Shown: positions 3,109 to 63,892, numbered from the stretch's first letter. The stretch: 64,000 nt of DNA from a virus (IMGVR_UViG_3300027319_000001); one strand, 5' to 3'. Translations and numbers: made by a program. The notes: a model not told the origin generated them from the sequence alone.

Positions 3109-3201
3109 GGCTCCTCCTGCATCTTGGTGGTGTCTACTTCCAAGATACCCAATTCGGTAGAGCTATACCAGATTGCTGCCGGTTTTTTGGACAATTGTTA
3201 T

Positions 3202-4011
3202 ATGGCCGATATTGCTGAGATCCGCTCCCGCGTCAGGACGGCGCTGGGGGATCTCGGCGACCGATTCAGCCTCACGCTCGCTGGCGGTCAATCCAGCTAC
3301 CAGCTTGGATACCGCCGGGTCAGTGACCTAGTCGTACACGAGCTGTCCGGGTCCACGGTGTCCGAGATCCCCCCAGATGGGTATGAACTGGACGCATACG
3401 ACGGTATCATCCGTTTCCCGGAGCCGATTCCTGACAACCACAGTCTGCTGATAACCGGTCGTGAGCACGGGCTTTTCACCGATAACGAGCTGGACCGGTA
3501 CATCGACACTGCGGTCAAGAAGCACTGCTACGAGCGTGAGACGGTAGAGCGCAAGCGAAACGAGAAGGGCTTCATCGTCTACGAGCGCACCCCCATCACT
3601 CTGGAGAACCTTCCAGAGATTGAGGAAAGTGCCCTTGTCATCCTCGCCACCATAGAGGCTCTATGGGATCTGGCCACGGATGCTGCCACGGACGTAGATG
3701 TCTGGACGGCTGAGGGCACGCACCTGTCTCGTGCGCAGCGCTACAACCAGCTGATGCAGCATCTGGACGTGCTGACTCAGCGGTATCAGACGCTGTGCCA
3801 GCAGCTGAACATTGGCCTCAACCGCATTGAGGTCTACACGCTCAGGCGTGTCAGCTACACCACTGGCCGACTTGTACCGATCTTCCGTGAGCGGGAGTAC
3901 GACGAGGTCGGGCCGGGCGCATGGCCGAAGCGGCTGCTGCCGCCCATCGACAGCCCGAACGAAGACGAATCCGGAATCCCGTCCCCGATTGCTGGTGGCT
4001 GGGGGCCGTGA
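3202..4011 (+). CDS. Hypothetical head/neck protein
   Basis: ATG 3202 (MADIAEIRSRV...) inside ORF-track 3124..4011; stop overlaps next start (GTGATGG). Confidence 0.6.
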   Translation: MADIAEIRSRVRTALGDLGDRFSLTLAGGQSSYQLGYRRVSDLVVHELSGSTVSEIPPDGYELDAYDGIIRFPEPIPDNHSLLITGREHGLFTDNELDRYIDTAVKKHCYERETVERKRNEKGFIVYERTPITLENLPEIEESALVILATIEALWDLATDAATDVDVWTAEGTHLSRAQRYNQLMQHLDVLTQRYQTLCQQLNIGLNRIEVYTLRRVSYTTGRLVPIFREREYDEVGPGAWPKRLLPPIDSPNEDESGIPSPIAGGWGP

Positions 4012-50398: not shown

Positions 50399-50523
50399 GC
50401 GTCTACAAGCAGCCTATTCCTGAAAATCGCCCGGATATGGCACCGGTCCGCCCTGAGGATGGTGACCAGGACGCTAAGGTTCAGGTGCGCCCCCTTCCTG
50501 AGTTCGACGAGAGGGGGACGTGA
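50395..50523 (+). CDS. Hypothetical 42-aa protein (tentative)
   Basis: GTGA coupling at both ends; VSVYKQPIPENRPDMAPVRPEDG... Confidence 0.3.
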   Translation: MSVYKQPIPENRPDMAPVRPEDGDQDAKVQVRPLPEFDERGT

Positions 50524-51323
50524 TGAGTCTGACCGCTGACGCTTTTATTGCCGTTGCTGAGCGGGAGATTGGCTACAAGGAAGACAAGAACGGAGCAACC
50601 AAGTACGGTATTTGGTACGGCAAGCGGCATAAGAATCCGGCATATGACAAGGCAGCCTGGTGTGACATGTTCCTTGTCTGGTGCGCCTACCAGGCTGCAG
50701 GTGAAGCAGGTGTCGCTATCGTCGGTGATTTCGCCTACACGCCGTGGCATGCGAGCTGGTTTGCTCGTAACGGGCGTTTCGGCAACACCCCGAAGAGGGG
50801 CGCGATCGCCTTTTTCGACTGGGGGGGATCGAAGAACATCTACGCCATTGACCACGTCGGCATTGTTCTAGGGACTGACTCTCTCGGCCGCGTGGTGACG
50901 ATTGAGGGCAATACGTCCAACCAGGTAGCCAAGCGTTACCGGTCCATGTCCACCATCGTCGGCTACGGATATCCTAAGTTCGCCGCTGCCGCCAAGAATG
51001 CGTCGGTCAAGGCGGCGAATACCAAGCCTGCTACCACGAAGAAGCCGTCGGTTCCGGCATATCCGCTGCCGAAGGGTCACGTTCTCGGCTACCCAAAGAC
51101 CAAGTACATCCACGACGGTACGGAGAACGCGACGTATAAGAATGCTGTCCGTACGGCCCAGAACCGCTTTAAGGAGCGGGGCTGGACCATCACCGTGGAC
51201 GGTATTTTCGGGCCGCAGACGACTAAGGTCACCAAGGCATTCCAGGCTGAGAAGGGCCTGGAAGTTGACGGCCGTATCGGTCCGATCACTTGGAATGCAC
51301 TCTGGACCGCGCCGATCACTTGA
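50520..51323 (+). CDS. Endolysin: CHAP domain + peptidoglycan-binding domain
   Basis: AAWCDMFLVW and IDHVGIVLG (CHAP Cys/His); C-terminal VDGIFGPQTTKVTKAFQ...VDGRIGPITWNAL (PG_binding_1). Confidence 0.85.
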   Translation: MMSLTADAFIAVAEREIGYKEDKNGATKYGIWYGKRHKNPAYDKAAWCDMFLVWCAYQAAGEAGVAIVGDFAYTPWHASWFARNGRFGNTPKRGAIAFFDWGGSKNIYAIDHVGIVLGTDSLGRVVTIEGNTSNQVAKRYRSMSTIVGYGYPKFAAAAKNASVKAANTKPATTKKPSVPAYPLPKGHVLGYPKTKYIHDGTENATYKNAVRTAQNRFKERGWTITVDGIFGPQTTKVTKAFQAEKGLEVDGRIGPITWNALWTAPIT

Positions 51324-54910: not shown

Positions 54911-56401
54911 GTGCTGACCCTTTATTTTGGGGGAGCTGAAATCCCTGGTTGGCGGAAATTTCTCGCCGATCAGGGGGTCACACACGTATCGATGTCTTTC
55001 GTCGGTCTGCTGCGGCGGACACGTCTTGTGCGGCCGTGGCTGATTGATGAGAAATTCCCGGAAGACATGGCGATCTTTCTGGATTCTGGCGGTTACACGC
55101 TGAACAAGAATCCGGAGAAATACACGATTGAAGAGCTCCACGAAATGGCGCATAAGTACCGGGATTTCGTGGAGATGAATTATGACCGCTTGGAAATGGT
55201 ATCGGAGTTTGACGCCCTTGTCCTCGGTCAGGAGTGGATTCAGCGTGAGCGCGCCAGCTTCTGGGAGGGTCTTGGAGATAAGTGGCTGCCCATCTGGCAC
55301 GCAGAGACGGGCATAGCGGAGCTGGAGCGTCTTGCCGCCACATACGGCCGTGTAGGCGTCCCTCAGACGTCTGTAGGCGGCCGGGACATTATCCCGGTAC
55401 TCAACAGGCTGGCTCGTGATGGTGTGCGACTGCATGGCGTCGCCATGACCAAGACGACGCTTCTGGAAGAAGTTGCATTCGATTCCGTAGCGTCCACGTC
55501 TTGGCTCTCTCCCGCGCAATACGGGGATACTCAGATTTGGACCGGACACGAACTTAAACGCTATCCCCGCAAATACAAGGAACAGGGGCGTAAAAGGCAC
55601 CGCCAGCACCTCGCATCTCAGGGGTTCAACACCGAGGCGATTGAAGCAGATGACCATAACGAGGTGTTGCGTGTTGCCGTTTGGAGCTGGCAGCAGTACA
55701 TCGCGCACCTGAATCGTGGGGGAGTAGTTAGTACATTGCGGAATAGGGATAATCCCGAAAATCGGGAAAACGAGCGCGCAGAAGTTGATACGCAGGTTTC
55801 CGAAACCAGTACCGAAGTATCAACTAGAAATCCGTTTCCGCGCGAGCGTCGGCAGCTTTTGCCGGGCGTCGTACTGGACGTCGTAAGCCGCTCTGAGCTG
55901 GGAGAAGACGGTCAACCGGTCCAACGAGAGGAACGCCGTGTCGGTGTAGATCGTATTGCTCTACGCCAGTGTGATAGTTGCTACATTGCCAGCCGTTGCC
56001 CGGCGTTCGTGCCTCATGCCGAGTGTGGTTATGAGATCCCGGTACAGATAAAAACCCGGGAACAGCTGGACGCGGCACGGCGCGCTGTCCTTGCCATGCA
56101 GCTGCAGCGCGTCATGTACATGCGGTTGGTGGAGGAGCTGGAAGGCGGTTATTCCGATCCGAATCTCTCCAAAGAAATCGATCTGTTCAACCGCATGGCT
56201 ACCCAGCTCTCAGAGGAAGACGCCGAGTCGGTTTCCATCAGCATAAAGGCTCGTGCTCGCTCCGATGGCGAGACCGGAATGATCGGCCGTCTGTTCGGCC
56301 GCGAGGCGGCAGAACAGGTTCGCGCGCTTCCTGAGACCGTGGAGTCGGACGATCTGCTTCAGCACATGGGAGTTGTTGACGCTGAGGTAGTGGATCGCTG
56401 A
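54911..56401 (+). CDS. TGT/DpdA-like transglycosylase domain fused to an unknown C-terminal domain
   Basis: IFLDSGGYT and VAFDSVASTSW resemble the DSGGF and DS..SW motifs of the tRNA-guanine transglycosylase/DpdA family; ~170-aa Cys-containing helical C-terminus after a polar linker. Confidence 0.45.
   Translation: MLTLYFGGAEIPGWRKFLADQGVTHVSMSFVGLLRRTRLVRPWLIDEKFPEDMAIFLDSGGYTLNKNPEKYTIEELHEMAHKYRDFVEMNYDRLEMVSEFDALVLGQEWIQRERASFWEGLGDKWLPIWHAETGIAELERLAATYGRVGVPQTSVGGRDIIPVLNRLARDGVRLHGVAMTKTTLLEEVAFDSVASTSWLSPAQYGDTQIWTGHELKRYPRKYKEQGRKRHRQHLASQGFNTEAIEADDHNEVLRVAVWSWQQYIAHLNRGGVVSTLRNRDNPENRENERAEVDTQVSETSTEVSTRNPFPRERRQLLPGVVLDVVSRSELGEDGQPVQREERRVGVDRIALRQCDSCYIASRCPAFVPHAECGYEIPVQIKTREQLDAARRAVLAMQLQRVMYMRLVEELEGGYSDPNLSKEIDLFNRMATQLSEEDAESVSISIKARARSDGETGMIGRLFGREAAEQVRALPETVESDDLLQHMGVVDAEVVDR
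55783..55825. repeat. Inverted AGTTGATAC pair inside the coding linker of 54911..56401
   Basis: agttgatacg 55783-55792 ... ggtttccgaaacc ... gtatcaact 55817-55825. Confidence 0.65.
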
Positions 56402-56410
56402 CCGGAAAAC

Positions 56411-56452
56411 GCTAGAAGCCCCGCGCCAAAAATCTGGCGTGGGGCTTCTAGC
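56411..56452 (+). terminator. Strong hairpin terminator
   Basis: 18-bp stem gctagaagccccgcgcca / tggcgtggggcttctagc (one G-U), loop aaaatc. Confidence 0.8.
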
Positions 56453-56544
56453 GTACTTTGGCTATTCCCATTCGGCGAAGAAGCGTATTAACGCCCCCGG
56501 TTATAATCGAAATTGTCCGAGAATTCGGCACGTGATTGGGGATT

Positions 56545-56640
56545 ATGTGGCGGCTCGACGAACTGCTCGACGAACTCTGCCGCATCGCCGCCGCGGGCCT
56601 CAGCGACGGAATCCTCACCTCCGCATTCGGTCACACATAA
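56545..56640 (+). CDS. 31-aa high-GC ORF upstream of hsdM (possible gene remnant)
   Basis: MWRLDELLDELCRIAAAGLSDGILTSAFGHT*; contains the tandem 12-nt ctcgacgaact repeat; shares the hsdM-like GC3 bias. Confidence 0.25.
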   Translation: MWRLDELLDELCRIAAAGLSDGILTSAFGHT

Positions 56641-56654
56641 GTGAGAAGGAGACC

Positions 56655-58277
56655 ATGTCCCCCAGGAAGAAAAAGATCACCGAACAGGCGGCCCTGCTGG
56701 GCATGCCCGCCATGGCCGACCTGTACGACACCCTGTGGAAGGCCGCGAACAAGCTGCGTGGCTACATGGACGCCGCACAGTACAAGGACTTCGTCCTGGG
56801 CCTGGTGTTCCTCAAGTACGTCTCGGACGCGTTCGAGGAGCGCCGCGAGGCCATCCGCGCGGAGATCCTGGCGCAGGGCATCCCCGAGTCCCGTCTCGAC
56901 ATGTTCCTCGACGACAAGGACGCGTGCATCGGCCACGGCGTCTTCTGGGTCCCGGAAGAGGCGCGCTGGTCGCACCTGGCTGCGCACGCCAAGAGCGACG
57001 GCATCGGCGAGCTCATCGACCGTGCCATGGACGCCATCATGAAATCCAACCCGTCGCTTGCTGGCGTACTGCCCAAGATCTTCAACCGGGACAACGTGGA
57101 TCAGCGCCGTCTCGGCGAGCTGGTCGACCTCATCAGCGACGCCAGCTTCACCGGCCACGGCGACAGGCCCGCCCGGGACGTGCTCGGCGAGGTCTACGAG
57201 TACTTCCTAGAGAAGTTCGCCCGCGCCGAAGGCCAGCGCGGCGGCGAGTACTACACCCCGCCCAGCGTGGTCAAGCTCCTGGTCCAGGTGCTGGAGCCGT
57301 ACTCCGGCCGCGTCTACGACCCCTGCTGCGGATCAGGCGGCATGTTCGTGCAGGCCGAGAAGTTCGTGATCGCCCACCGCGGCATCCAGCACAAGGACGG
57401 CATCACCGTCTACGGCCAGGAATCCAACGAGCGCACCTGGCGGCTGGCGAAGATGAACCTCGCCATCCACGGCATCAGCGGCAACCTCGGCCCCCGCTGG
57501 GCGGACACCTTCCGCGAGGACAAACACCCCGACCTCAAAGCCGACTACATCCTCGCCAACCCGCCGTTCAACATGTCCGACTGGTCACGCACCGTGGACG
57601 ACCCCAGGTGGCGCTTCGGCACGCCCCCGGCGAACAACGCCAACTTCGCCTGGCTGCAGCACATCATTTCCAAGCTCGCCGAACGCGGCACCGCAGGCGT
57701 CGTGCTCGCCAACGGCTCCATGACCTCCATGAAGTCCGGCGAGGGCGAGATCCGCGCCGCCATCGTCGAAGCCGACCTGGTCTCGTGCATGGTCGCACTG
57801 CCGCCGCAACTGTTCCGCACCACTCAGATCCCCGTCTGCCTGTGGTTCTTCGACAAGGACAAGAGCCCGCAGGGTGCCAAGCGGCTGGCAGACAGGCGCG
57901 GCGAGGTGCTGTTCATCGACGCCCGGAACATGGGCACGATGGTCGACCGCACCGAGCGCGTCCTCACTGACGACGACATCGCCCGCATCGCTGACACCTA
58001 CCACGCCTGGCGGGGCACCGCCTCAGCCCGCGCCAAGAACCTGACGTACGAGGACGTGCCGGGATACTGCTATTCAGCCACCCTCGAGGAGATCCGCCAG
58101 CACGACCACGTTCTGACCCCGGTCCGGTACGTCGGCGTGCCCGAGGTCGAGAACGACGATGACGAGCCGATCACCGACAAGATCGCCCGGCTCGCCAAGG
58201 AGCTGTACGCCCACTTTGAGGAGTCCGCGCGGCTGGAGAAGGACGTGCGCGAGCAGTTGGAGCTGATCGATGGGTGA
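56655..58277 (+). CDS. hsdM: Type I restriction-modification N6-adenine methyltransferase subunit
   Basis: RBS aggag + ATG 56655; LWKAANKLRGYMDAAQYKDFVLGLVFLKYVSD (HsdM N-domain); VYDPCCGSGGMF (SAM); ILANPPFN (catalytic). Confidence 0.92.
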   Translation: MSPRKKKITEQAALLGMPAMADLYDTLWKAANKLRGYMDAAQYKDFVLGLVFLKYVSDAFEERREAIRAEILAQGIPESRLDMFLDDKDACIGHGVFWVPEEARWSHLAAHAKSDGIGELIDRAMDAIMKSNPSLAGVLPKIFNRDNVDQRRLGELVDLISDASFTGHGDRPARDVLGEVYEYFLEKFARAEGQRGGEYYTPPSVVKLLVQVLEPYSGRVYDPCCGSGGMFVQAEKFVIAHRGIQHKDGITVYGQESNERTWRLAKMNLAIHGISGNLGPRWADTFREDKHPDLKADYILANPPFNMSDWSRTVDDPRWRFGTPPANNANFAWLQHIISKLAERGTAGVVLANGSMTSMKSGEGEIRAAIVEADLVSCMVALPPQLFRTTQIPVCLWFFDKDKSPQGAKRLADRRGEVLFIDARNMGTMVDRTERVLTDDDIARIADTYHAWRGTASARAKNLTYEDVPGYCYSATLEEIRQHDHVLTPVRYVGVPEVENDDDEPITDKIARLAKELYAHFEESARLEKDVREQLELIDG

Positions 58278-59460
58278 GGCCGTAACGCTGGCTGACGTCT
58301 GCGAACTTATTGTCTGTAGTCATAGTACTCCTCCGGAGTGTCCCGCCGAGGAGGCTTACGGGTTCGCCGTTGGCACGCCAAATGTCCGTGACGGACGAAT
58401 TGTTCTTGAATCCGCCAAACGAGTAAATCGCGAGACGTTCGCCACCTGGACCGCGCGTGCTGTACCACAAGCTGGCGACTTGATCGTCACACGTAGGGGA
58501 CCGGTAGGTCGAGTTGGGATAATTCCTGAAGGGGTGAAAATTTGCCTGGGGGCGAGAACCGTGCTTCTCAGAGCGAATGCGGAGATTGTTCACCCCCGTT
58601 TCCTGCACTATCTGCTGATGGGGCCTGACATGCAACATGCCATGCACGCCCTAAGCGGTGGATCTACCGTTCTCAACCTTAAAGCAGAAGATTTCCGTAA
58701 TCTCAAACTCCCGCCCCTCCCTTCCCTAATGCAGCAGCGAATGATTGGCGAGCTGCTCGGCGCGCTGGACGACAAGATCGCGGCCAACGAGCGGATCGCA
58801 CGGGCCAGCCTCGACTTGGCGGACGCGCACTTTGAATTGGTCGCCCGCAATCTCGCATATAGCTCTGAAACGTTCGGAACGGTAGCTGAGGTGTTCGTCG
58901 GAGGTACACCACGGACCTCAGAGCCCGCGTACTGGGATGGATCGATTGCCTGGGCCACGCCATCTGATGTCACTGGCCTGAGCGGACCCTATCTCTTCAC
59001 CACGGCGAGAAAGATCACAGAGAAGGGCCTTACCCAGTGTGGTTCGCGGATCTACCCGCCTGGCTCAATCTTCATGACGTCGCGCGCGACGATCGGAGCC
59101 TTCGCGGTACCACAGATCCCGACAGCGGTGAGTCAAGGAATCATCGTCATCATTCCACGGCAGCCTGAAATGCGGTGGTGGTTGTTCCATGAAATGCGAT
59201 CTCGGGTCGAGGAGATGCGTAGTCTCGCGAACGGCTCAGTTATCCTTGGACTGACTTGCGAGGATTTCAAGGCCATGCGCGTCCGATTGGCCGAACCCGA
59301 CGTGATCGCCCGCTTCTCTGCGCAAGTTGATCCTCTGCATAAGCGAGCAGCTAAGTGCGTCGAGGAGTCGTATGTCCTGGCTGAGCTTCGCGACACACTC
59401 CTGCCCAAGCTGATGTCCGGTGAGATCCGCGTACGAGACGCGGAGAAGGCGGCCGATTAA
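58270..59460 (+). CDS. hsdS: Type I restriction-modification specificity subunit
   Basis: ATGGGTGA overlap with hsdM; two variable domains separated by conserved helices (LPPLPSLMQQRMIGELLGALDDKI; LRDTLLPKLMSGEIRV). Confidence 0.88.
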   Translation: MGEAVTLADVCELIVCSHSTPPECPAEEAYGFAVGTPNVRDGRIVLESAKRVNRETFATWTARAVPQAGDLIVTRRGPVGRVGIIPEGVKICLGARTVLLRANAEIVHPRFLHYLLMGPDMQHAMHALSGGSTVLNLKAEDFRNLKLPPLPSLMQQRMIGELLGALDDKIAANERIARASLDLADAHFELVARNLAYSSETFGTVAEVFVGGTPRTSEPAYWDGSIAWATPSDVTGLSGPYLFTTARKITEKGLTQCGSRIYPPGSIFMTSRATIGAFAVPQIPTAVSQGIIVIIPRQPEMRWWLFHEMRSRVEEMRSLANGSVILGLTCEDFKAMRVRLAEPDVIARFSAQVDPLHKRAAKCVEESYVLAELRDTLLPKLMSGEIRVRDAEKAAD

Positions 59461-59497
59461 CCTTGGAAGCGCCCCGCCGACAGGCGGGGCGCAACCA
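59448..59497. repeat. Left copy of a 50-bp direct repeat (contains the hsdS terminator hairpin)
   Basis: ggcggccgattaaccttggaagcgccccgcc GACA ggcggggcgcaacca; matches 60629-60678 except 2 nt and the loop. Confidence 0.9.
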
Positions 59498-59565
59498 GGA
59501 TCAATCGGACATGTTCAGGAGCTTTTCAATTTCAGCGAACGAAATGGTGATCTCGCTCTCCAGAG

Positions 59566-59781
59566 CTATCCGTGGTTGTTGTAGGCTTCGACTATATGCT
59601 GCCCAAGGAAGACACCACACATTACGGTGGCGATAAGGGACACGAGGAATGCGATTAAAGCGAGCATCTTTTCTGAGCCTTCCCGGCTGTTAATCGTGAT
59701 GTTTAAGAAGTACCCTGTTCCACTTGCGAGAACCATTACGGTGACCAGGGAAATTACGGCAACGAACTGCTCGTCGGTCAT
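59566..59781 (-). CDS. 71-aa two-helix membrane protein (cassette gene B)
   Basis: RBS gggaga 7 nt before ATG 59781; MTDEQFVAVISLVTVMVLASGTGYFL...MLALIAFLVSLIATVMCGVFLG...; AT-richer than its surroundings. Confidence 0.5.
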   Translation of the reverse strand: MTDEQFVAVISLVTVMVLASGTGYFLNITINSREGSEKMLALIAFLVSLIATVMCGVFLGQHIVEAYNNHG

Positions 59782-59913
59782 TCGGATTTCTCCCGGATTT
59801 TTCCGTTTTGCTATGGCCGTCTCCCAACCGGATTTTTTCGGCTGGGAGACGACTAAAGCCAAACGGATTACCGGCTCTCCAATTTGTATCGTTTCCGGCG
59901 TCTCAGAAGAAGA

Positions 59914-60600
59914 TCAAAGTGCGTCGTCCAGTGTGTAGTCTACGAGACGTAGTCTGTCCAGCCCCTCTCGTTTCGCAATGATTGCTGCCGTCTCTTCAGT
60001 TAACCCACGGGCGCGGTGCTTTTCATAGAGTTTTGCGGCTTCTTCTGCCGTATGGGCGTCCCTGTACCGTGTGCCCAGGTCTCCGAAAGGATGTCCGTAT
60101 TCCGGGTCCCTGACCATCGCACCCCAGGATGTTACCGTGCTCGCTTCTGTACCTACATATACGGTGGTACGGAACCTGCGGATCTCTACTTCATCCCCTG
60201 TGTCCAGTGTTAGTACGTGCTCCAGCTGACCTGCGTCAGCCTCCCACAGCTGCGGAGGCTCCTCCCCCGGCGCGTAGCCAAAATACTCTCCGAATCTCTT
60301 GAGTCCGGCAAGCCCACGCCTGAACCGTTCCCGAAACATGGCTCCAGCACGCGGAACCCGGCACAGCTGCAAGATGTCCGTTGGTGTAAGTTCCACGTGC
60401 GTGATCCGTTCAACCCTGGTTGGGAACCCTCCACGCTGCTTATGTATGCGGACACGATTGCCAAAGAAGGTGATGAAAGTCACCGACTTAGGATCTGTCC
60501 GCACCACGATCTTCCTAGCCGTGCGGTTACCGCTCCTAGCGGCGACCGTGTATGAGCAGACATCCCCAACTTTAAGGTTGCGCGTCTCAACCAACTCCAT
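59914..60600 (-). CDS. 228-aa protein of unknown function (cassette gene A)
   Basis: Clean ORF with a GAGG-type RBS; no motif I recognise. Confidence 0.6.
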   Translation of the reverse strand: MELVETRNLKVGDVCSYTVAARSGNRTARKIVVRTDPKSVTFITFFGNRVRIHKQRGGFPTRVERITHVELTPTDILQLCRVPRAGAMFRERFRRGLAGLKRFGEYFGYAPGEEPPQLWEADAGQLEHVLTLDTGDEVEIRRFRTTVYVGTEASTVTSWGAMVRDPEYGHPFGDLGTRYRDAHTAEEAAKLYEKHRARGLTEETAAIIAKREGLDRLRLVDYTLDDAL

Positions 60601-60624
60601 AGCGCCTCACTCCATAGCGCCTCC
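60595..60624. repeat. Tandem 15-bp duplication over the RBS/start of 59914..60600
   Basis: ctccatagcgcctca + ctccatagcgcctcc; on the minus strand the upstream copy gives an ATG-GAG-TGA mini-ORF. Confidence 0.85.
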
Positions 60625-60628
60625 AAGT

Positions 60629-60678
60629 GGCGGCCGATTGGCCTTGGAAGCGCCCCGCCTGTCGGCGGGGCGCAACCA
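60629..60678. repeat. Right copy of the 50-bp direct repeat
   Basis: ggcggccgattggccttggaagcgccccgcc TGTC ggcggggcgcaacca; the loop is the complement of the left copy's loop. Confidence 0.9.
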
Positions 60679-60686
60679 TGGTCACC

Positions 60687-60971
60687 TTAGTCCTCGATGG
60701 TGATCAGGTAGTGACGCTTACGGTACGTTTTCCTGGTCACCTGCGCGAGCGGATCCCGAGGGCAACCGTTATCAATGTAGTCCTGCCAGCCACGGATATG
60801 GCGCTGAATAGCGGATCTGCGAGTCTTGAGGATACTGGCCACGTACTTGCTTGGCTTTGCCTTGAGCTGCGACTCAATGTCGGCAAGCTCAACCTGACGG
60901 TCCGCGATCATCGCGAGCGCCGCCTGCAGGCGGACCGCATAGTCATAGTGAGCGAAAGGGTTGCTGTTCAT
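60687..60971 (-). CDS. Hypothetical 94-aa protein
   Basis: ATG 60971 after gggag (MNSNPFAHYDYAVRLQ...); the longer TTG-61115 form would run through the terminator 61077-61105. Confidence 0.5.
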   Translation of the reverse strand: MNSNPFAHYDYAVRLQAALAMIADRQVELADIESQLKAKPSKYVASILKTRRSAIQRHIRGWQDYIDNGCPRDPLAQVTRKTYRKRHYLITIED

Positions 60972-61076
60972 CGCGCTCCCGTGTCTTGGTGGTGGCTCCA
61001 CTATAGCGGGGTGCGTGACGAGTGTCAACCTATCGCGCAGTAGTCGGGAACAGAGCTGTGACCTGGGGAAACGAAA

Positions 61077-61105
61077 GTCCCCGCGTCGCATTCCGACGCG
61101 GGGAC
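61077..61105 (-). terminator. Rho-independent terminator of the HicA-like gene
   Basis: gtccccgcgtcg cattc cgacgcggggac (12-bp stem); on the minus strand it is followed by tttcgtttccc. Confidence 0.75.
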
Positions 61106-61111
61106 TGGAAA

Positions 61112-61372
61112 TCAACCCTTTACGTCAAGCTTAGGAAATTTCCGTGCCTTGCCCTTATACCTCCCATGCGGGTTTCTGTACACCAGCCCTATCTTGGCTA
61201 GCTGACTGAGCGTGTTGTTCCTGCCGTGCTTGTCGCTGTTGGTGCGAGACACGATAACCAGTCCTCCATCCTGAGGATTTCGGACGTGGTAGTGACGCCC
61301 ATTTTTCTTGATCAGGAAACCTTGCCTTGCCGCGAGTCTCAAGATGGCCTTGATGTCTTTTCGGTCGGTCAT
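61112..61372 (-). CDS. HicA-like (YcfA-fold) putative mRNA interferase with a basic C-terminal tail
   Basis: KDIKAILRLAARQGFLIKKNGRHYHVRNP..GGLVIVSR....GRNNTLSQLAKIGL parallels the HicA pattern (G-x-H...tvP.h...l..gtl..i.kq.Gl). Confidence 0.45.
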   Translation of the reverse strand: MTDRKDIKAILRLAARQGFLIKKNGRHYHVRNPQDGGLVIVSRTNSDKHGRNNTLSQLAKIGLVYRNPHGRYKGKARKFPKLDVKG

Positions 61373-61403
61373 GTCACTCTGGTCTTGGTGCGGTGCGTTT
61401 AGC

Positions 61404-61484
61404 TTAGTGGCTTTGGGGTGGTTTGGTCAACAGCTGTCTGAGTCCTCCAGCAAGTGTCTTAGGAAAGATCACGTGATCGGCCAT
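61404..61484 (-). CDS. 26-aa ORF upstream of the HicA-like gene (tentative)
   Basis: ggagg 8 nt before ATG 61484; MADHVIFPKTLAGGLRQLLTKPPQSH*; contains the 12-bp palindrome gatcacgtgatc 61467-61478. Confidence 0.25.
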   Translation of the reverse strand: MADHVIFPKTLAGGLRQLLTKPPQSH

Positions 61485-61571
61485 CGGATTTTCCTCCAAG
61501 TTTGATTCGGATTTTTCCAGCAAGAGAGTTCGGATTTCTCTGGCGGATTACCAACCTGCCAGACCGGATTT
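61485..61571. repeat. Five direct CGGATT[TA] repeats
   Basis: cggattt at 61485, 61508, 61531, 61565 and cggatta at 61544; the first three are exactly 23 bp apart. Confidence 0.6.
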
Positions 61572-61681
61572 TGTGCCCGGCAGGAAGGGGATTCGTCAGA
61601 GGTATTCGTAGAGGATCAGTTCCTTGGTGGACTCGCTTAGCGCTCTGCCATCCTGTCCAAGGAAGACGTCCATCAGGTCTT

Positions 61682-63406: not shown

Positions 63407-63892
63407 ATGGCTTGGGACATTCTTCGCATCGGCAGACCGAAGCACTTGGGTGGTACGGATTACTACCGCCATGTTACCGCTGTCCAGTGCCCAAAGTGCC
63501 GGGAACTGGAGGTCACTGTATACGATGATTTCAGCGGAGAGTATCGGTGCATGGCGTGCGATAGAAATATCGGCACGCCTAAGGAAATCGTAATCACTGT
63601 TTGGAATGAATTCACCAATCACACAAAGTCGCAACAAGGGCGACGTCCCGGCTGTCGTTGGTGCCGTACCGGAACCTACGGTATGTGTGCTGAAGGCATG
63701 AAGTACCTCAGCAGGATCAGGGAGCACGAGGTTAGGTATGAGGTCCCCTACCTTGCCATTCTGGGGACAGGTCCGGACAGCATGATTGAGGTTCGCGCGC
63801 TTTGGCATACACAGGAGAGGGATATCACCCGGGTCATGCACCCACACGCTGTGCTAGTGGATCAGCCCCACATTTTCCAGGTTCTGTGGTGA
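63407..63892 (+). CDS. Zinc-ribbon protein, AT-richer gene
   Basis: CPKCRE...CMACDR and CRWCRTG...C; 161 aa; bracketed by hairpin modules B and C. Confidence 0.55.
   Translation: MAWDILRIGRPKHLGGTDYYRHVTAVQCPKCRELEVTVYDDFSGEYRCMACDRNIGTPKEIVITVWNEFTNHTKSQQGRRPGCRWCRTGTYGMCAEGMKYLSRIREHEVRYEVPYLAILGTGPDSMIEVRALWHTQERDITRVMHPHAVLVDQPHIFQVLW

What the first reader, a model, noticed from the sequence alone, without database searches (positions are those of the whole stretch)
59448..60678. Two-gene cassette of unknown function bracketed by 50-bp direct repeats next to the type I methyltransferase
A 50-bp block, ggcggccgattNNccttggaagcgccccgcc-loop-ggcggggcgcaacca, occurs at 59448-59497 (overlapping the hsdS stop) and again at 60629-60678. 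The two copies differ only in the 2 nt after gatt and in the 4-nt hairpin loop, which is GACA in one and its complement TGTC in the other.

Exactly two minus-strand genes lie between the copies. One is a 228-aa soluble protein (59914..60600). The other is a 71-aa protein with two hydrophobic helices (59566..59781). Neither has a motif I recognise, and by eye the segment is AT-richer than its flanks.

Without the insert, hsdS and the convergent gene 60687..60971 would share one terminator. The cassette therefore looks inserted, with the terminator duplicated.

A soluble protein plus a small membrane protein beside an R-M module is the layout of many abortive-infection or superinfection-exclusion modules. 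This is my best candidate for an undescribed system, but the function is inference only.
Basis: partly seen in the sequence, partly recalled or inferred. Interest (0 to 1): 0.7.

Follow-up and report, generated by a model that had tools for sequence, protein, structure and literature searches.

The report
Duplicated gene-end hairpin flanking resident genes
The 56-base repeat is real, but it is the conserved end-of-gene hairpin of a neighbouring gene family that this phage has largely lost, and the two unknown genes between the copies look like long-standing members of a small phage operon, not an inserted defence cassette.

Summary
A 56-nt direct repeat (59448-59503 / 60629-60684) brackets a 228-aa soluble gene and a 71-aa two-helix membrane gene, and the hairpin loop is reverse-complemented between copies.

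The interpretation mostly fails.
- In sister genomes (~95-99% identical) the repeat is 107 nt and includes the last ~51 nt of a 192-aa gene. That gene lies between the 94-aa gene and the 228-aa gene. The window has deleted it, leaving only its hairpin.
- The hairpin is therefore the 3' stem-loop of the 192-like gene family. It is conserved, with compensatory changes, in a lineage only ~77% identical.
- A homologue of the 94-aa gene lies at or next to a 228-family gene in every lineage that has one.
- The sister lineage has 192-like/hairpin, 228-like x2 and a two-helix membrane gene, but no hsdMS.
- hsdM is the compositional outlier (GC3 0.92). The 228-aa gene is typical.
- What varies is hsdMS (gained) and the 192 gene (lost), not 228+71.

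Both proteins remain uncharacterised: no Pfam, PHROG, PADLOC, PDB or fold match. The membrane partner is not conserved across the 228 family. A defence role is neither supported nor excluded. This is an ordinary mosaic accessory region of an uncultured actinobacterial myovirus.

The parts
59448..59503 (-). Hairpin copy 1 (core stem-loop 59469-59492, loop TGTC on the minus strand). It lies at the end of the minus-strand operon and meets the convergent hsdS. The last hsdS codons (AAD) and its stop are encoded by the outer arm of the repeat.
   Evidence: -45.1 kcal/mol, z -6.3; CM 86.9 bits
59504..59560 (-). Relic B: the last ~17-19 codons and stop (..SEITISFAEIEKLLNMSD*) of a 192-aa gene that is intact only in sister genomes. 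Together with copy 1 it forms the 107-nt repeat seen in those genomes.
   Evidence: tblastn residues 174-192, 79%; blastn 92.5% over 107 nt
59566..59781 (-). 71-aa protein with two hydrophobic helices and an acidic net charge. SD GGGAGA lies 7 nt upstream. It is 100% identical at nucleotide level in all 11 relatives compared. No detectable homologue elsewhere.
59802..59867 (-). 29-nt-arm imperfect hairpin in the 132-nt spacer between the 228-aa and 71-aa genes.
   Evidence: (I2)
59914..60600 (-). 228-aa soluble protein. It belongs to a small uncharacterised family (22 clusters at 90% identity). Confident model with two beta-rich domains plus helices; no fold match.
60594..60623 (-). 15-nt tandem duplication over the 228 start. 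It creates a mini-ORF ATG-GAG-TGA ahead of the real ATG. Absent from the 192-containing sister genomes.
   Evidence: (D3)
60629..60684 (-). Hairpin copy 2 (core 60650-60673, loop GACA on the minus strand). This is the native 3' stem-loop of the deleted 192-aa gene. It sits 28 nt upstream of the 228 start, inside the operon.
   Evidence: 78.8 bits
60674..60686 (-). Deletion junction of the 192-aa gene. Minus strand reads GGTGA|CCATGGTT, against GGTGAAGAAGG...GATTGATCCTGGTT in sister genomes. The GTG start codon is retained.
60687..60971 (-). 94-aa gene (C-terminal WQDYIxxGCP motif). It is the first gene of the transcription unit and the conserved upstream neighbour of 228-family genes in distant phages.
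61000..61028 (-). Sigma-70-like promoter TTGACA-17-TATAGT (11 of 12). The TTGACA -35 hexamer recurs upstream of the 94-like gene in L003, L016, L013 and L014. It is preceded by a strong terminator at 61106-61076.
56655..59460 (+). hsdM (56655-58277, 540 aa) and hsdS (58270-59460). No hsdR was seen in the window. hsdM GC3 is 0.92. The module is absent from the sister lineage, so it is the likely recent insertion at this convergent junction.
56471..56557 (+). Relic A: ~90 nt, 84% identical to the middle of the 192-aa gene. It lies in the hsdM leader, in the opposite orientation to relic B.
56410..56454 (.). Terminator hairpin of the DpdA-like gene. By eye it resembles the bidirectional terminator that the sister lineage shares between the DpdA-like gene and the minus-strand operon; BLASTN did not align the two.

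Best explanation
The repeat is the conserved 3' stem-loop module of a '192-like' gene family that is locally multi-copy in this phage group. It is a ~25-bp imperfect hairpin that starts at the stop codon of the gene.

Operon layout (shown): in the window lineage the minus-strand operon reads promoter, 94, [192], hairpin 2, 228, 71, relic B + hairpin 1.

What happened to the 192-like genes (shown): the window has deleted the intact 192 gene from its start codon to just before its hairpin. A second copy survives only as 57 nt plus its hairpin. What remains is two bare hairpins that happen to bracket 228 and 71.

Status of 228 and 71 (inferred from synteny): they are resident accessory genes of that operon. 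Relative to the sister lineage, the DNA that was added is hsdM-hsdS. It sits beyond hairpin 1 and borrows its outer arm for the hsdS stop codon.

Role of the hairpin (inferred): on the RNA it acts as an intercistronic stem-loop (stabiliser, processing site or leaky attenuator) at copy 2. At copy 1 it acts as the two-way end of convergent transcription.

Loop flip (inferred): this is a local template-switch inversion.

The biochemical functions of the 228-aa and 71-aa proteins are unknown. My best guess is accessory proteins transcribed by the host polymerase early in infection by a virulent actinobacterial myovirus. The 94-aa protein, rather than the membrane protein, is the conserved partner of 228.
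For: - Sister contigs L002/L003/L004/L008/L009 carry a 192-aa gene between 94 and 228. Their direct repeat is 107 nt (L002:1968-2074 vs 3134-3240, 92.5%), made of the 192 3' end plus the hairpin.
- The window, L005 and L007 lack the gene, with the junction GGTGA|CCATGGTT.
- Window 59504-59560 still encodes the 192 C-terminus.
- Sister lineage L016/L017 (core ~77% nt identity, DpdA-like 86% aa) reads: HicA-like, 92 (=94, 53%), 195 (192-like), hairpin, 88, 202 (192-like), hairpin, 231 (41% to 228), 231 (31%), 79-aa two-helix gene, terminator, then the convergent DpdA-like gene. It has no hsdMS.
- BLASTN between the lineages aligns only the hairpins in this segment (80-82%). The structure is kept: 95.5% of cells paired and 3 pairs with compensatory changes.
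- A covariance model finds only these two copies in the 64-kb window and in the stretches held for the relatives.
- 94-like is adjacent to 228-like in L013, L014 and L020, one gene away in L015, and in the same operon in L016.
- Promoter-like TTGACA-17-TATAGT lies upstream of 94, with the TTGACA hexamer present in four other contigs from the sister and distant lineages. Only 28 nt with an SD separate hairpin 2 from the 228 ATG.
- Composition: hsdM GC3 0.92, 228 GC3 0.60, 71 GC3 0.64.
- Reverse-complement loops also occur in the two L017 copies (CGCGGGGA / TCCCCGCG). Loop inversion by template switching is a documented mutation class (PMC8794818).
Against: - L022 (DpdA-like 55-56% aa identical) has 94-like, then a 370-aa 192-like gene, then a terminator converging on the DpdA-like gene, with no 228 or membrane gene. 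So 228+TM could have entered downstream of a 192-like gene at some deeper time.
- Relic B is ~96% identical (loop excluded) to the 192 3' end, so the duplication or gene conversion is recent. Its mechanism is not established.
- Relic A lies in the opposite orientation to relic B. No simple scenario explains this.
- All near relatives were retrieved through the 71-aa protein, so empty-site alleles would have been missed in that search.
- The hairpin has no U-tract, and its RNA role is untested.
- Inference about the operon rests on consensus promoter matches only.
Confidence: 0.65

Rival explanations
1. The 228+71 pair entered as a unit at the 3' end of the 192 gene, for example by single-crossover (Campbell-type) integration of a circular fragment carrying the same gene-end/hairpin sequence. 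That would duplicate the 107-nt homology on both sides.
For: - Direct repeats of 107 nt (92.5%; ~96% without the loop) flank exactly 228+71 in the 192-containing genomes.
- L022 has 94-like and 192-like but no 228 or membrane gene.
- 228 is only 41% identical to its L016 counterpart while DpdA-like is 86%. That is compatible with allele replacement.
Against: - No empty site was found.
- The 94-like/228-like neighbourhood is conserved in five lineages, including very distant ones.
- The sister lineage has 228-like genes and a membrane gene after the 192-like hairpin with no second repeat.
- GC and GC3 of 228 are typical.
- There is no own promoter.
- There is no recombinase, and there are no terminal inverted repeats.
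- The recent zero-divergence tract (about 60050-58500) cuts across the cassette instead of ending at the hairpins.
Confidence: 0.15
2. Whatever its origin, 228 (soluble) and 71 (membrane) form a two-component abortive-infection or superinfection-exclusion module of the RexA/RexB type. This concerns function and is largely independent of the other explanations.
For: - The layout of a soluble protein followed by a small two-helix membrane protein recurs in the sister lineage, with a 79-aa two-helix protein in the same position.
- The operon has a host-type promoter.
- Neighbours include DNA-modification genes and a HicA-like gene.
Against: - No PADLOC, Pfam or PHROG hit for either protein.
- The 79-aa and 71-aa proteins share no detectable similarity.
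- In L013, L014, L015 and L020 the gene after the 228-like gene is a soluble ~70-aa protein, not a membrane protein.
- 228 and 71 are separated by 132 nt with a hairpin, so they are not translationally coupled.
- The phage carries its own replication genes (DnaB-like, primase, PolA, RecA, RNR). No integrase was found among the ORFs scanned, though not every ORF was tested.
- Its nearest cultured relatives are virulent (PMC7453282), so prophage-style exclusion is unlikely.
Confidence: 0.1
3. The hairpin is primarily a recombination 'linker'. In this view it is a conserved intergenic sequence at which homologous recombination shuffles accessory modules between related phages, and its repetition is what drives gene gain and loss here.
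For: - The hairpin and its flanks are 80-82% identical between lineages whose neighbouring genes are only 26-41% identical in protein.
- Gene content differs on both sides of the hairpins (192 present or absent, hsdMS present or absent).
Against: - The one recent exchange tract that can be seen does not end at the hairpins.
- The 192 deletion ends just outside the hairpin rather than between two hairpin copies.
- Only two copies exist per genome.
- Conservation with compensatory changes fits selection on an RNA or DNA structure equally well.
Confidence: 0.15

Closest known systems
Intergenic stem-loops of phage operons: intrinsic terminators, 3' stabilisers and RNase III processing hairpins (e.g. 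T7 early-region R sites). From general knowledge, not tested here.
   Same: GC-rich long hairpin immediately after a stop codon. Very stable (-40 to -45 kcal/mol). Conserved with compensatory changes. One copy lies at a convergent gene junction and one between co-directional genes.
   Different: No U-tract on either strand. Sequence is conserved well beyond what structure alone needs. No Rfam family matches. Processing or termination has not been shown.
Phage 'morons' (promoter-gene-terminator units inserted between conserved genes). From general knowledge.
   Same: Accessory genes of unknown function on the opposite strand to the structural genes, with a host-type promoter and hairpins at the ends.
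   Different: The promoter serves 94-228-71 as a whole, not 228-71 alone. The unit is conserved in position across lineages, not sporadically present. Its composition is not foreign. The moron-like newcomer here is hsdMS.
Template-switch (quasi-palindrome) loop inversion, PMC8794818
   Same: A perfect stem retained with the loop replaced by its exact reverse complement at the same length. Seen independently in two lineages (4-nt and 8-nt loops).
   Different: That paper describes it in rRNA hairpins. Here it occurs between paralogous copies of a phage intergenic hairpin. With two copies in each of two lineages, opposite states are expected about one time in four by chance.
Two-gene exclusion systems with a soluble and a membrane component (lambda RexA/RexB; mycobacteriophage Sbash gp30/gp31). 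From memory.
   Same: Gene order and sizes are loosely similar: a soluble protein followed by a small membrane protein.
   Different: No homology. The partnership is not conserved across the family. The phage appears virulent. No phenotype data exist.
Integron gene cassettes (ORF plus an imperfect palindromic attC site)
   Same: An ORF followed at once by an imperfect palindrome that overlaps the stop codon. GCGCAAC / GTTGCGC resemble the RYYYAAC / GTTRRRY boxes with one mismatch each (compared by eye).
   Different: No integrase. Only one arm carries the AAC box. The 192 deletion leaves the hairpin behind instead of removing one attC equivalent. The cassettes never appear in other contexts.

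Membership tests
Rho-independent (intrinsic) terminator | Stable GC-rich stem-loop | tested here: met
   10-bp perfect GC stem within a ~25-bp imperfect stem. -40 to -45 kcal/mol, z -3.3 to -6.3.
Rho-independent (intrinsic) terminator | U-rich tract immediately 3' of the stem | tested here: not met
   Tails are CCGCCUUCUCC / CCGCCACUUGG (minus strand) and ACAUGUU / ACCUUAG (plus strand). The terminator scan does not report either copy. Actinobacterial terminators can lack U-tracts (general knowledge), so this is not decisive.
Rho-independent (intrinsic) terminator | Sits at the end of a transcription unit | tested here: inconclusive
   Copy 1 sits at a convergent junction, so it meets this. 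Copy 2 is 28 nt upstream of the 228 ATG with no room for a promoter, so it must be read through or processed.
Moron / inserted accessory cassette | Present in some close relatives and cleanly absent in others | tested here: not met
   228+71 are present in all 12 near contigs. Only the 192 gene is polymorphic. Caveat: these contigs were retrieved through the 71-aa protein.
Moron / inserted accessory cassette | Own promoter and foreign base composition | tested here: not met
   The promoter lies upstream of 94. 228 has GC 56.9% and GC3 0.60; 71 has GC3 0.64. hsdM is the outlier.
Transposable element with target-site duplication | Transposase or recombinase, terminal inverted repeats, short target-site duplication | tested here: not met
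   No such domains in 228, 71, 94 or 192. No terminal inverted repeats around the 192 gene. A 56-107 nt repeat is far longer than a typical target-site duplication.
Known anti-phage defence / Abi / Sie systems | Homology of a component to a catalogued defence protein | tested here: not met
   PADLOC gives no family for 228, 71, 94, P0002 or P0029. Only the 86-aa neighbour hits HicA-like.
Known anti-phage defence / Abi / Sie systems | Conserved co-occurrence of the two components | tested here: not met
   A membrane partner occurs only in the two DpdA-convergent lineages, and the two partners are not detectably homologous. Elsewhere the downstream gene is soluble. The conserved partner is the 94-like gene.
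Known anti-phage defence / Abi / Sie systems | Protective or toxic phenotype | not testable with these tools
   Needs expression and phage challenge in a host.
Class II holin / pinholin | About 65-95 aa with two transmembrane helices | tested here: met
   71 aa with two hydrophobic segments.
Class II holin / pinholin | Adjacent to the endolysin; basic, charged C-terminal tail | tested here: not met
   The CHAP/PG-binding lysin is at 50520-51323, about 8 kb away, with its own small ORFs nearby. The C-terminus is HIVEAYNNHG and the protein has 2 K+R against 5 D+E.
Type I restriction-modification system | hsdM + hsdS + hsdR | tested here: inconclusive
   hsdM (N6_Mtase 2.6e-107, HsdM_N) and hsdS (Methylase_S 2.2e-21) are present. 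None of the large ORFs I scanned looks like HsdR, but the window covers only about two thirds of the genome and not all ORFs were scanned.
Template-switch loop inversion | Loop replaced by its exact reverse complement, same length, between intact perfect stem halves | tested here: met
   GACA/TGTC in the window and all near relatives. CGCGGGGA/TCCCCGCG in L017. Criteria as in PMC8794818.

The most novel reading that the evidence does not exclude
The conserved pair 94-like + 228-like would be an undescribed phage module, in this lineage extended by a small membrane protein. It would be transcribed from a host-type promoter and act in host takeover or exclusion of competing phages. The 228 protein would have a fold combination without known relatives, and the conserved hairpin would act as a regulatory RNA element that sets the ratio of upstream to downstream products.
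Probability: 0.1. Interest if true: 0.55.

Novelty: new member of a known kind. Interest (0 to 1): 0.2.

Why it matters
As it stands, not much. It is a worked example of how a pair of direct repeats around unknown genes can suggest an 'inserted cassette' when the repeats are really the leftovers of a decayed neighbouring gene family.

Three things are of practical use:
- It shows that the recently acquired DNA at this locus is the orphan type I methyltransferase, a likely anti-restriction gain from a high-GC host.
- It defines three small uncharacterised actinophage protein families (94-like, 192-like, 228-like) and their synteny.
- It provides a confident structural model for the 228 family that matches nothing known.

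If the 94/228 pair turned out to have a host-directed function, it would be a new small phage module, but nothing here points to a specific activity.

Tried and rejected
- **Cultured-phage relatives.** megablast of 58200-61500 and tblastn of the 228, P0029, 192, 71 and 94 proteins against 50,697 phage records gave no match.
- **Family libraries.** Pfam, PHROGs and PADLOC on all proteins of the segment gave nothing above noise, apart from HsdM/HsdS and the HicA-like neighbour.
- **Large-protein hits for 228.** The exhaustive HMMER search returned hits in 400-1900-aa proteins. These are WD40, DUF11 and TPR repeat proteins and I discarded them as repeat artefacts.
- **Structure of 228.** Single-sequence AlphaFold was useless (pLDDT 39.9). 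With a 23-sequence alignment the model is good (pLDDT 85.7). Foldseek against PDB and BFVD still gave nothing at E <= 0.001 (best TM 0.24). Only single-domain resemblances to Tudor/SH3/OB-like barrels and to ~70-aa uncharacterised phage proteins appeared. PDB sequence profiles of the 228 and 94 families found nothing.
- **192 and 228 as paralogues.** No similarity.
- **Hairpin as a genome-wide repeat or known RNA.** The covariance model finds only two copies per genome. Rfam gives only a sub-threshold CRISPR-DR9 hit (21.5 vs 45 bits), which I take as chance on a GC palindrome. The exact pattern is absent from IMG/VR.
- **192 gene as a mobile element.** No terminal inverted repeats and no nuclease or transposase domains. 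The word-indexed homologue search returned only the gene itself.
- **Integron-like attC reading.** Considered and rejected (see Closest known systems).
- **Relics A and B from one disrupted 192 copy.** I tried to derive both by a single insertion or inversion. No simple scenario fits their opposite orientations, so this is left unexplained.
- **Hairpins as endpoints of the recent exchange between strains.** They are not.
Full report
**1. Observation**

The repeat exists as described. The repeat finder returns one family, 59448-59503 and 60629-60684 (56 nt, 86% identity, 1181 nt apart). The core GCGCCCCGCC-N4-GGCGGGGCGC occurs exactly twice in the 64-kb window even with three mismatches allowed. 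None occurred in 100 shuffles.

Each copy is itself an imperfect palindrome with 21-26-nt arms (I3 and I6). The copies fold at -40 to -45 kcal/mol, z -3.3 to -6.3.

The loops, GACA and TGTC, are reverse complements. Both arms keep the same orientation in the two copies (AA opposite AA on the plus strand), so only the loop is flipped.

The hsdS stop lies inside copy 1. Between the copies lie a 228-aa gene with no hydrophobic segment and a 71-aa gene with two.

The claim of AT-richness holds only for the 71-aa gene and the spacer (about 50% GC). The 228-aa gene is 56.9% against a window mean of 57.7%, and GC3 of both genes is ordinary.

**2. Genome context**

The window is part of an uncultured myovirus. 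Related metagenome contigs are 82-100 kb.
- It encodes a tail sheath, baseplate, tape measure, DNA polymerase I, ribonucleotide reductase, helicases, primase and RecA.
- A CHAP/PG-binding lysin lies at 50520-51323.
- Just upstream of hsdM is a 496-aa DpdA-like transglycosylase (PHROG 887).
- Its nearest cultured relatives are Streptomyces phages of the BRock group at 39% identity. BRock is a virulent myovirus (PMC7453282).
- No integrase was found among the ORFs I scanned.

**3. Sister genomes show what the repeat belongs to**

The exact 71-aa protein occurs on 12 contigs. In five of them (L002, L003, L004, L008, L009) a 192-aa gene lies between the 94-aa and 228-aa genes. The window, L005 and L007 lack it.

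BLASTN of L002 against the window and against itself shows three things:
- The 192 gene is a clean indel. The minus-strand junction in the window is GGTGA|CCATGGTT, where the others read GGTGAAGAAGG...GATTGATCCTGGTT.
- In 192-containing genomes the direct repeat is 107 nt at 92.5% identity. It comprises the last ~51 nt of the 192 gene plus the hairpin.
- Window 59504-59560 still encodes ..SEITISFAEIEKLLNMSD*, the C-terminus of the 192 protein.

Hairpin 2 is therefore the native 3' stem-loop of the 192 gene. Hairpin 1 with relic B is a truncated second copy of the same gene end.

A third relic (A, 56471-56557, 84% identical to the middle of the 192 gene) lies in the hsdM leader in the opposite orientation.

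**4. A more distant sister lineage**

L016-L019 have ~77% nucleotide identity in core genes and 86% in the DpdA-like protein. Their gene order is:

HicA-like (70 aa) - 92 aa (53% to the 94-aa protein) - 195 aa (192-like) - hairpin - 88 aa - 202 aa (192-like) - hairpin - 231 aa (41% to 228) - 231 aa (31%) - 79-aa two-helix protein - two tiny hydrophobic ORFs - bidirectional terminator - convergent DpdA-like gene.

- There is no hsdMS and no hairpin after the membrane gene.
- In this segment BLASTN aligns only the hairpins between the lineages (80-82%).
- The stem differs by compensatory changes: GCGCCCCGCC/GGCGGGGCGC against GCGCCCTGG/CCAGGGCGC, plus a U-A to A-U swap in the outer stem. The flanks TGGTTGCGCCC...GGGCGCTTCCAAGG are identical.
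- On the five-sequence alignment 95.5% of cells pair and three pairs show double changes. This is modest evidence because only two lineages are sampled.
- A covariance model finds just these two copies per genome in the DNA held.
- The two L017 copies also carry reverse-complement loops (CGCGGGGA / TCCCCGCG).

**5. Deeper synteny**

The 228-aa protein has one 96% relative in the word-indexed search. Exhaustive HMMER and a profile search define a small family of about 22 clusters at 90% identity. One member comes from a Streptomyces sp. assembly.

In four distant contexts (L013, L014, L015, L020; source contigs 12.8 to 108 kb) the 228-like gene lies in a long array of small same-strand genes. 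A homologue of the window's 94-aa gene (34-41% identity, E 1e-10 to 1e-13) is immediately upstream in three of them and one gene away in the fourth. The gene downstream there is a soluble ~70-aa protein, not a membrane protein.

L022 (DpdA-like 55-56% identical) has 94-like followed by a 370-aa 192-like gene that converges on the DpdA-like gene. It has no 228-like or membrane gene and carries a different terminator.

So the 94-like gene is the constant element, and 192-like and 228-like genes are its recurrent downstream companions.

**6. Transcription layout**

- A strong terminator (61106-61076) follows the HicA-like gene.
- An 11/12 sigma-70-like promoter (61028-61000) precedes the 94-aa gene.
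- The TTGACA hexamer recurs upstream of the 94-like gene in L003, L016, L013 and L014.
- Only 28 nt, containing a GGAGG Shine-Dalgarno sequence, separate hairpin 2 from the 228 ATG. The 228 gene must therefore be transcribed through the hairpin.
- The same arrangement (hairpin, SD, ATG) follows both hairpins in L016.
- Neither copy has a U-tract.

I infer that copy 2 is an intercistronic stem-loop (stabiliser, processing site or leaky attenuator). I infer that copy 1 marks the end of convergent transcription with hsdS. None of this is shown experimentally.

**7. What was actually gained and lost**

- hsdM has 66% GC and GC3 0.92, against 0.60-0.73 for the other genes measured.
- hsdM-hsdS is absent from the sister lineage.
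- The last hsdS codons and its stop (GCG GCC GAT TAA) are encoded by the outer arm of the repeat. The other copy reads ...GATTGG at that position.

The methyltransferase module is therefore the newcomer and is fused onto a hairpin. Whether relic B + hairpin 1 were already at the operon end or arrived with hsdMS cannot be decided. The inverted relic A is unexplained.

Between the window and L003, divergence is zero from about 60050 to 58500. That tract covers the 3' end of 228, the 71-aa gene, hairpin 1 and most of hsdS. Divergence is 5-8% across 61600-60100. This recent exchange tract does not end at the hairpins.

**8. The proteins**

- *228 aa.* The model with a 23-sequence alignment is confident (pLDDT 85.7, pTM 0.76). 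It has an N-terminal five- to six-stranded barrel (residues 1-68), helices (73-119), a second beta unit (125-174) and two C-terminal helices. Foldseek finds nothing at E <= 0.001 in PDB or BFVD. There are only single-domain resemblances to Tudor/SH3/OB-like barrels and to ~70-aa uncharacterised phage proteins.
- *All four proteins (228, 71, 94, 192).* No Pfam, PHROG or PADLOC hit; PDB profile searches of the 228 and 94 families also found nothing.
- *71 aa.* It has two helices, an acidic net charge and no basic tail, and it lies 8 kb from the lysin. It is therefore not a typical holin. It shows no similarity to its positional analogue in L017.

**9. Verdict**

A gene-end stem-loop is indeed duplicated, but it belongs to the 192-like genes. 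The two bracketed genes behave as resident members of a conserved 94-[192]-228-TM operon. The demonstrable indels are the loss of the 192 gene and the gain of hsdMS.

A defence or exclusion role has no positive support and some evidence against it: the membrane partner is not conserved, the phage group is probably virulent, and there is no homology to known systems.

The loop flip is a recognised template-switch signature (PMC8794818). At two lineages with two copies each, it is not beyond chance.

This is an ordinary, if nicely documented, mosaic accessory locus containing uncharacterised protein families.

Noticed in passing
window 56655-59460: Orphan type I methyltransferase (hsdM + hsdS; no hsdR seen in the window). 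hsdM GC3 is 0.92 against 0.62 for hsdS and 0.60-0.73 for the other genes measured. The module is absent from the sister lineage L016/L017. This suggests recent capture from a high-GC actinobacterial host, probably for self-protection against restriction.
   Followed up: partly
window 54911-56401: 496-aa DpdA-like / queuine tRNA-ribosyltransferase homologue (PHROG 887, 1.2e-64). It is 39% identical to genes of Streptomyces phages BRock, GiJojo and LuckySocke. This hints at 7-deazaguanine DNA modification next to the methyltransferase.
   Followed up: partly
window 60594-60623: Perfect 15-nt tandem duplication (ACTCCATAGCGCCTC x2) across the 228 start codon. It creates an upstream mini-ORF ATG-GAG-TGA. 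It is absent from the 192-containing sister genomes, so it co-occurs with the 192 deletion.
   Followed up: partly
window 59469-59492 / 60650-60673; L017 458-483 / 1347-1372: In both lineages the two hairpin copies carry loops that are exact reverse complements of each other (GACA/TGTC; CGCGGGGA/TCCCCGCG). This is recurrent loop inversion, presumably by template switching.
   Followed up: partly
window 56471-56557: A ~90-nt relic of the middle of a 192-like gene (84% identical to L002:1728-1817) lies in the hsdM leader, on the strand opposite to relic B. The hsdMS module is thus flanked by inverted fragments of 192-like genes. No simple rearrangement explains this.
   Followed up: partly
window 61112-61372 (minus strand): 86-aa HicA-like protein (PADLOC HicA-like 8.5e-5; PHROG 2089 7e-6; weak Pfam HicA_toxin). 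A strong terminator follows at 61106-61076. No obvious HicB partner was identified. A 70-aa homologue occupies the same position in L016.
   Followed up: no
window ~58500-60050 versus 60100-61600: Between the window and sister genome L003 there are no differences over ~1.5 kb (3' end of 228, the 71-aa gene, hairpin 1, most of hsdS). There is 5-8% divergence just to the right, against 1-2% genome-wide. This is a recent recombination or sweep tract whose ends lie inside genes.
   Followed up: partly
L016 8001-9456; L016 6450-7927; L016 3568-4907: In the sister lineage the accessory genes occur as diverged tandem paralogue pairs: two 228-like genes (28% identical), two 192-like genes (24%) and two ~200-aa genes (28-29%). 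This suggests that local duplication is the usual way this region evolves.
   Followed up: no
window 63407-63892: 161-aa protein with weak zinc-ribbon matches. It has a 155-aa homologue in L016 (25% identity over 146 residues, E 8e-12). It also gave a marginal tblastn hit to the 192 protein (E 0.015), which I did not pursue.
   Followed up: no
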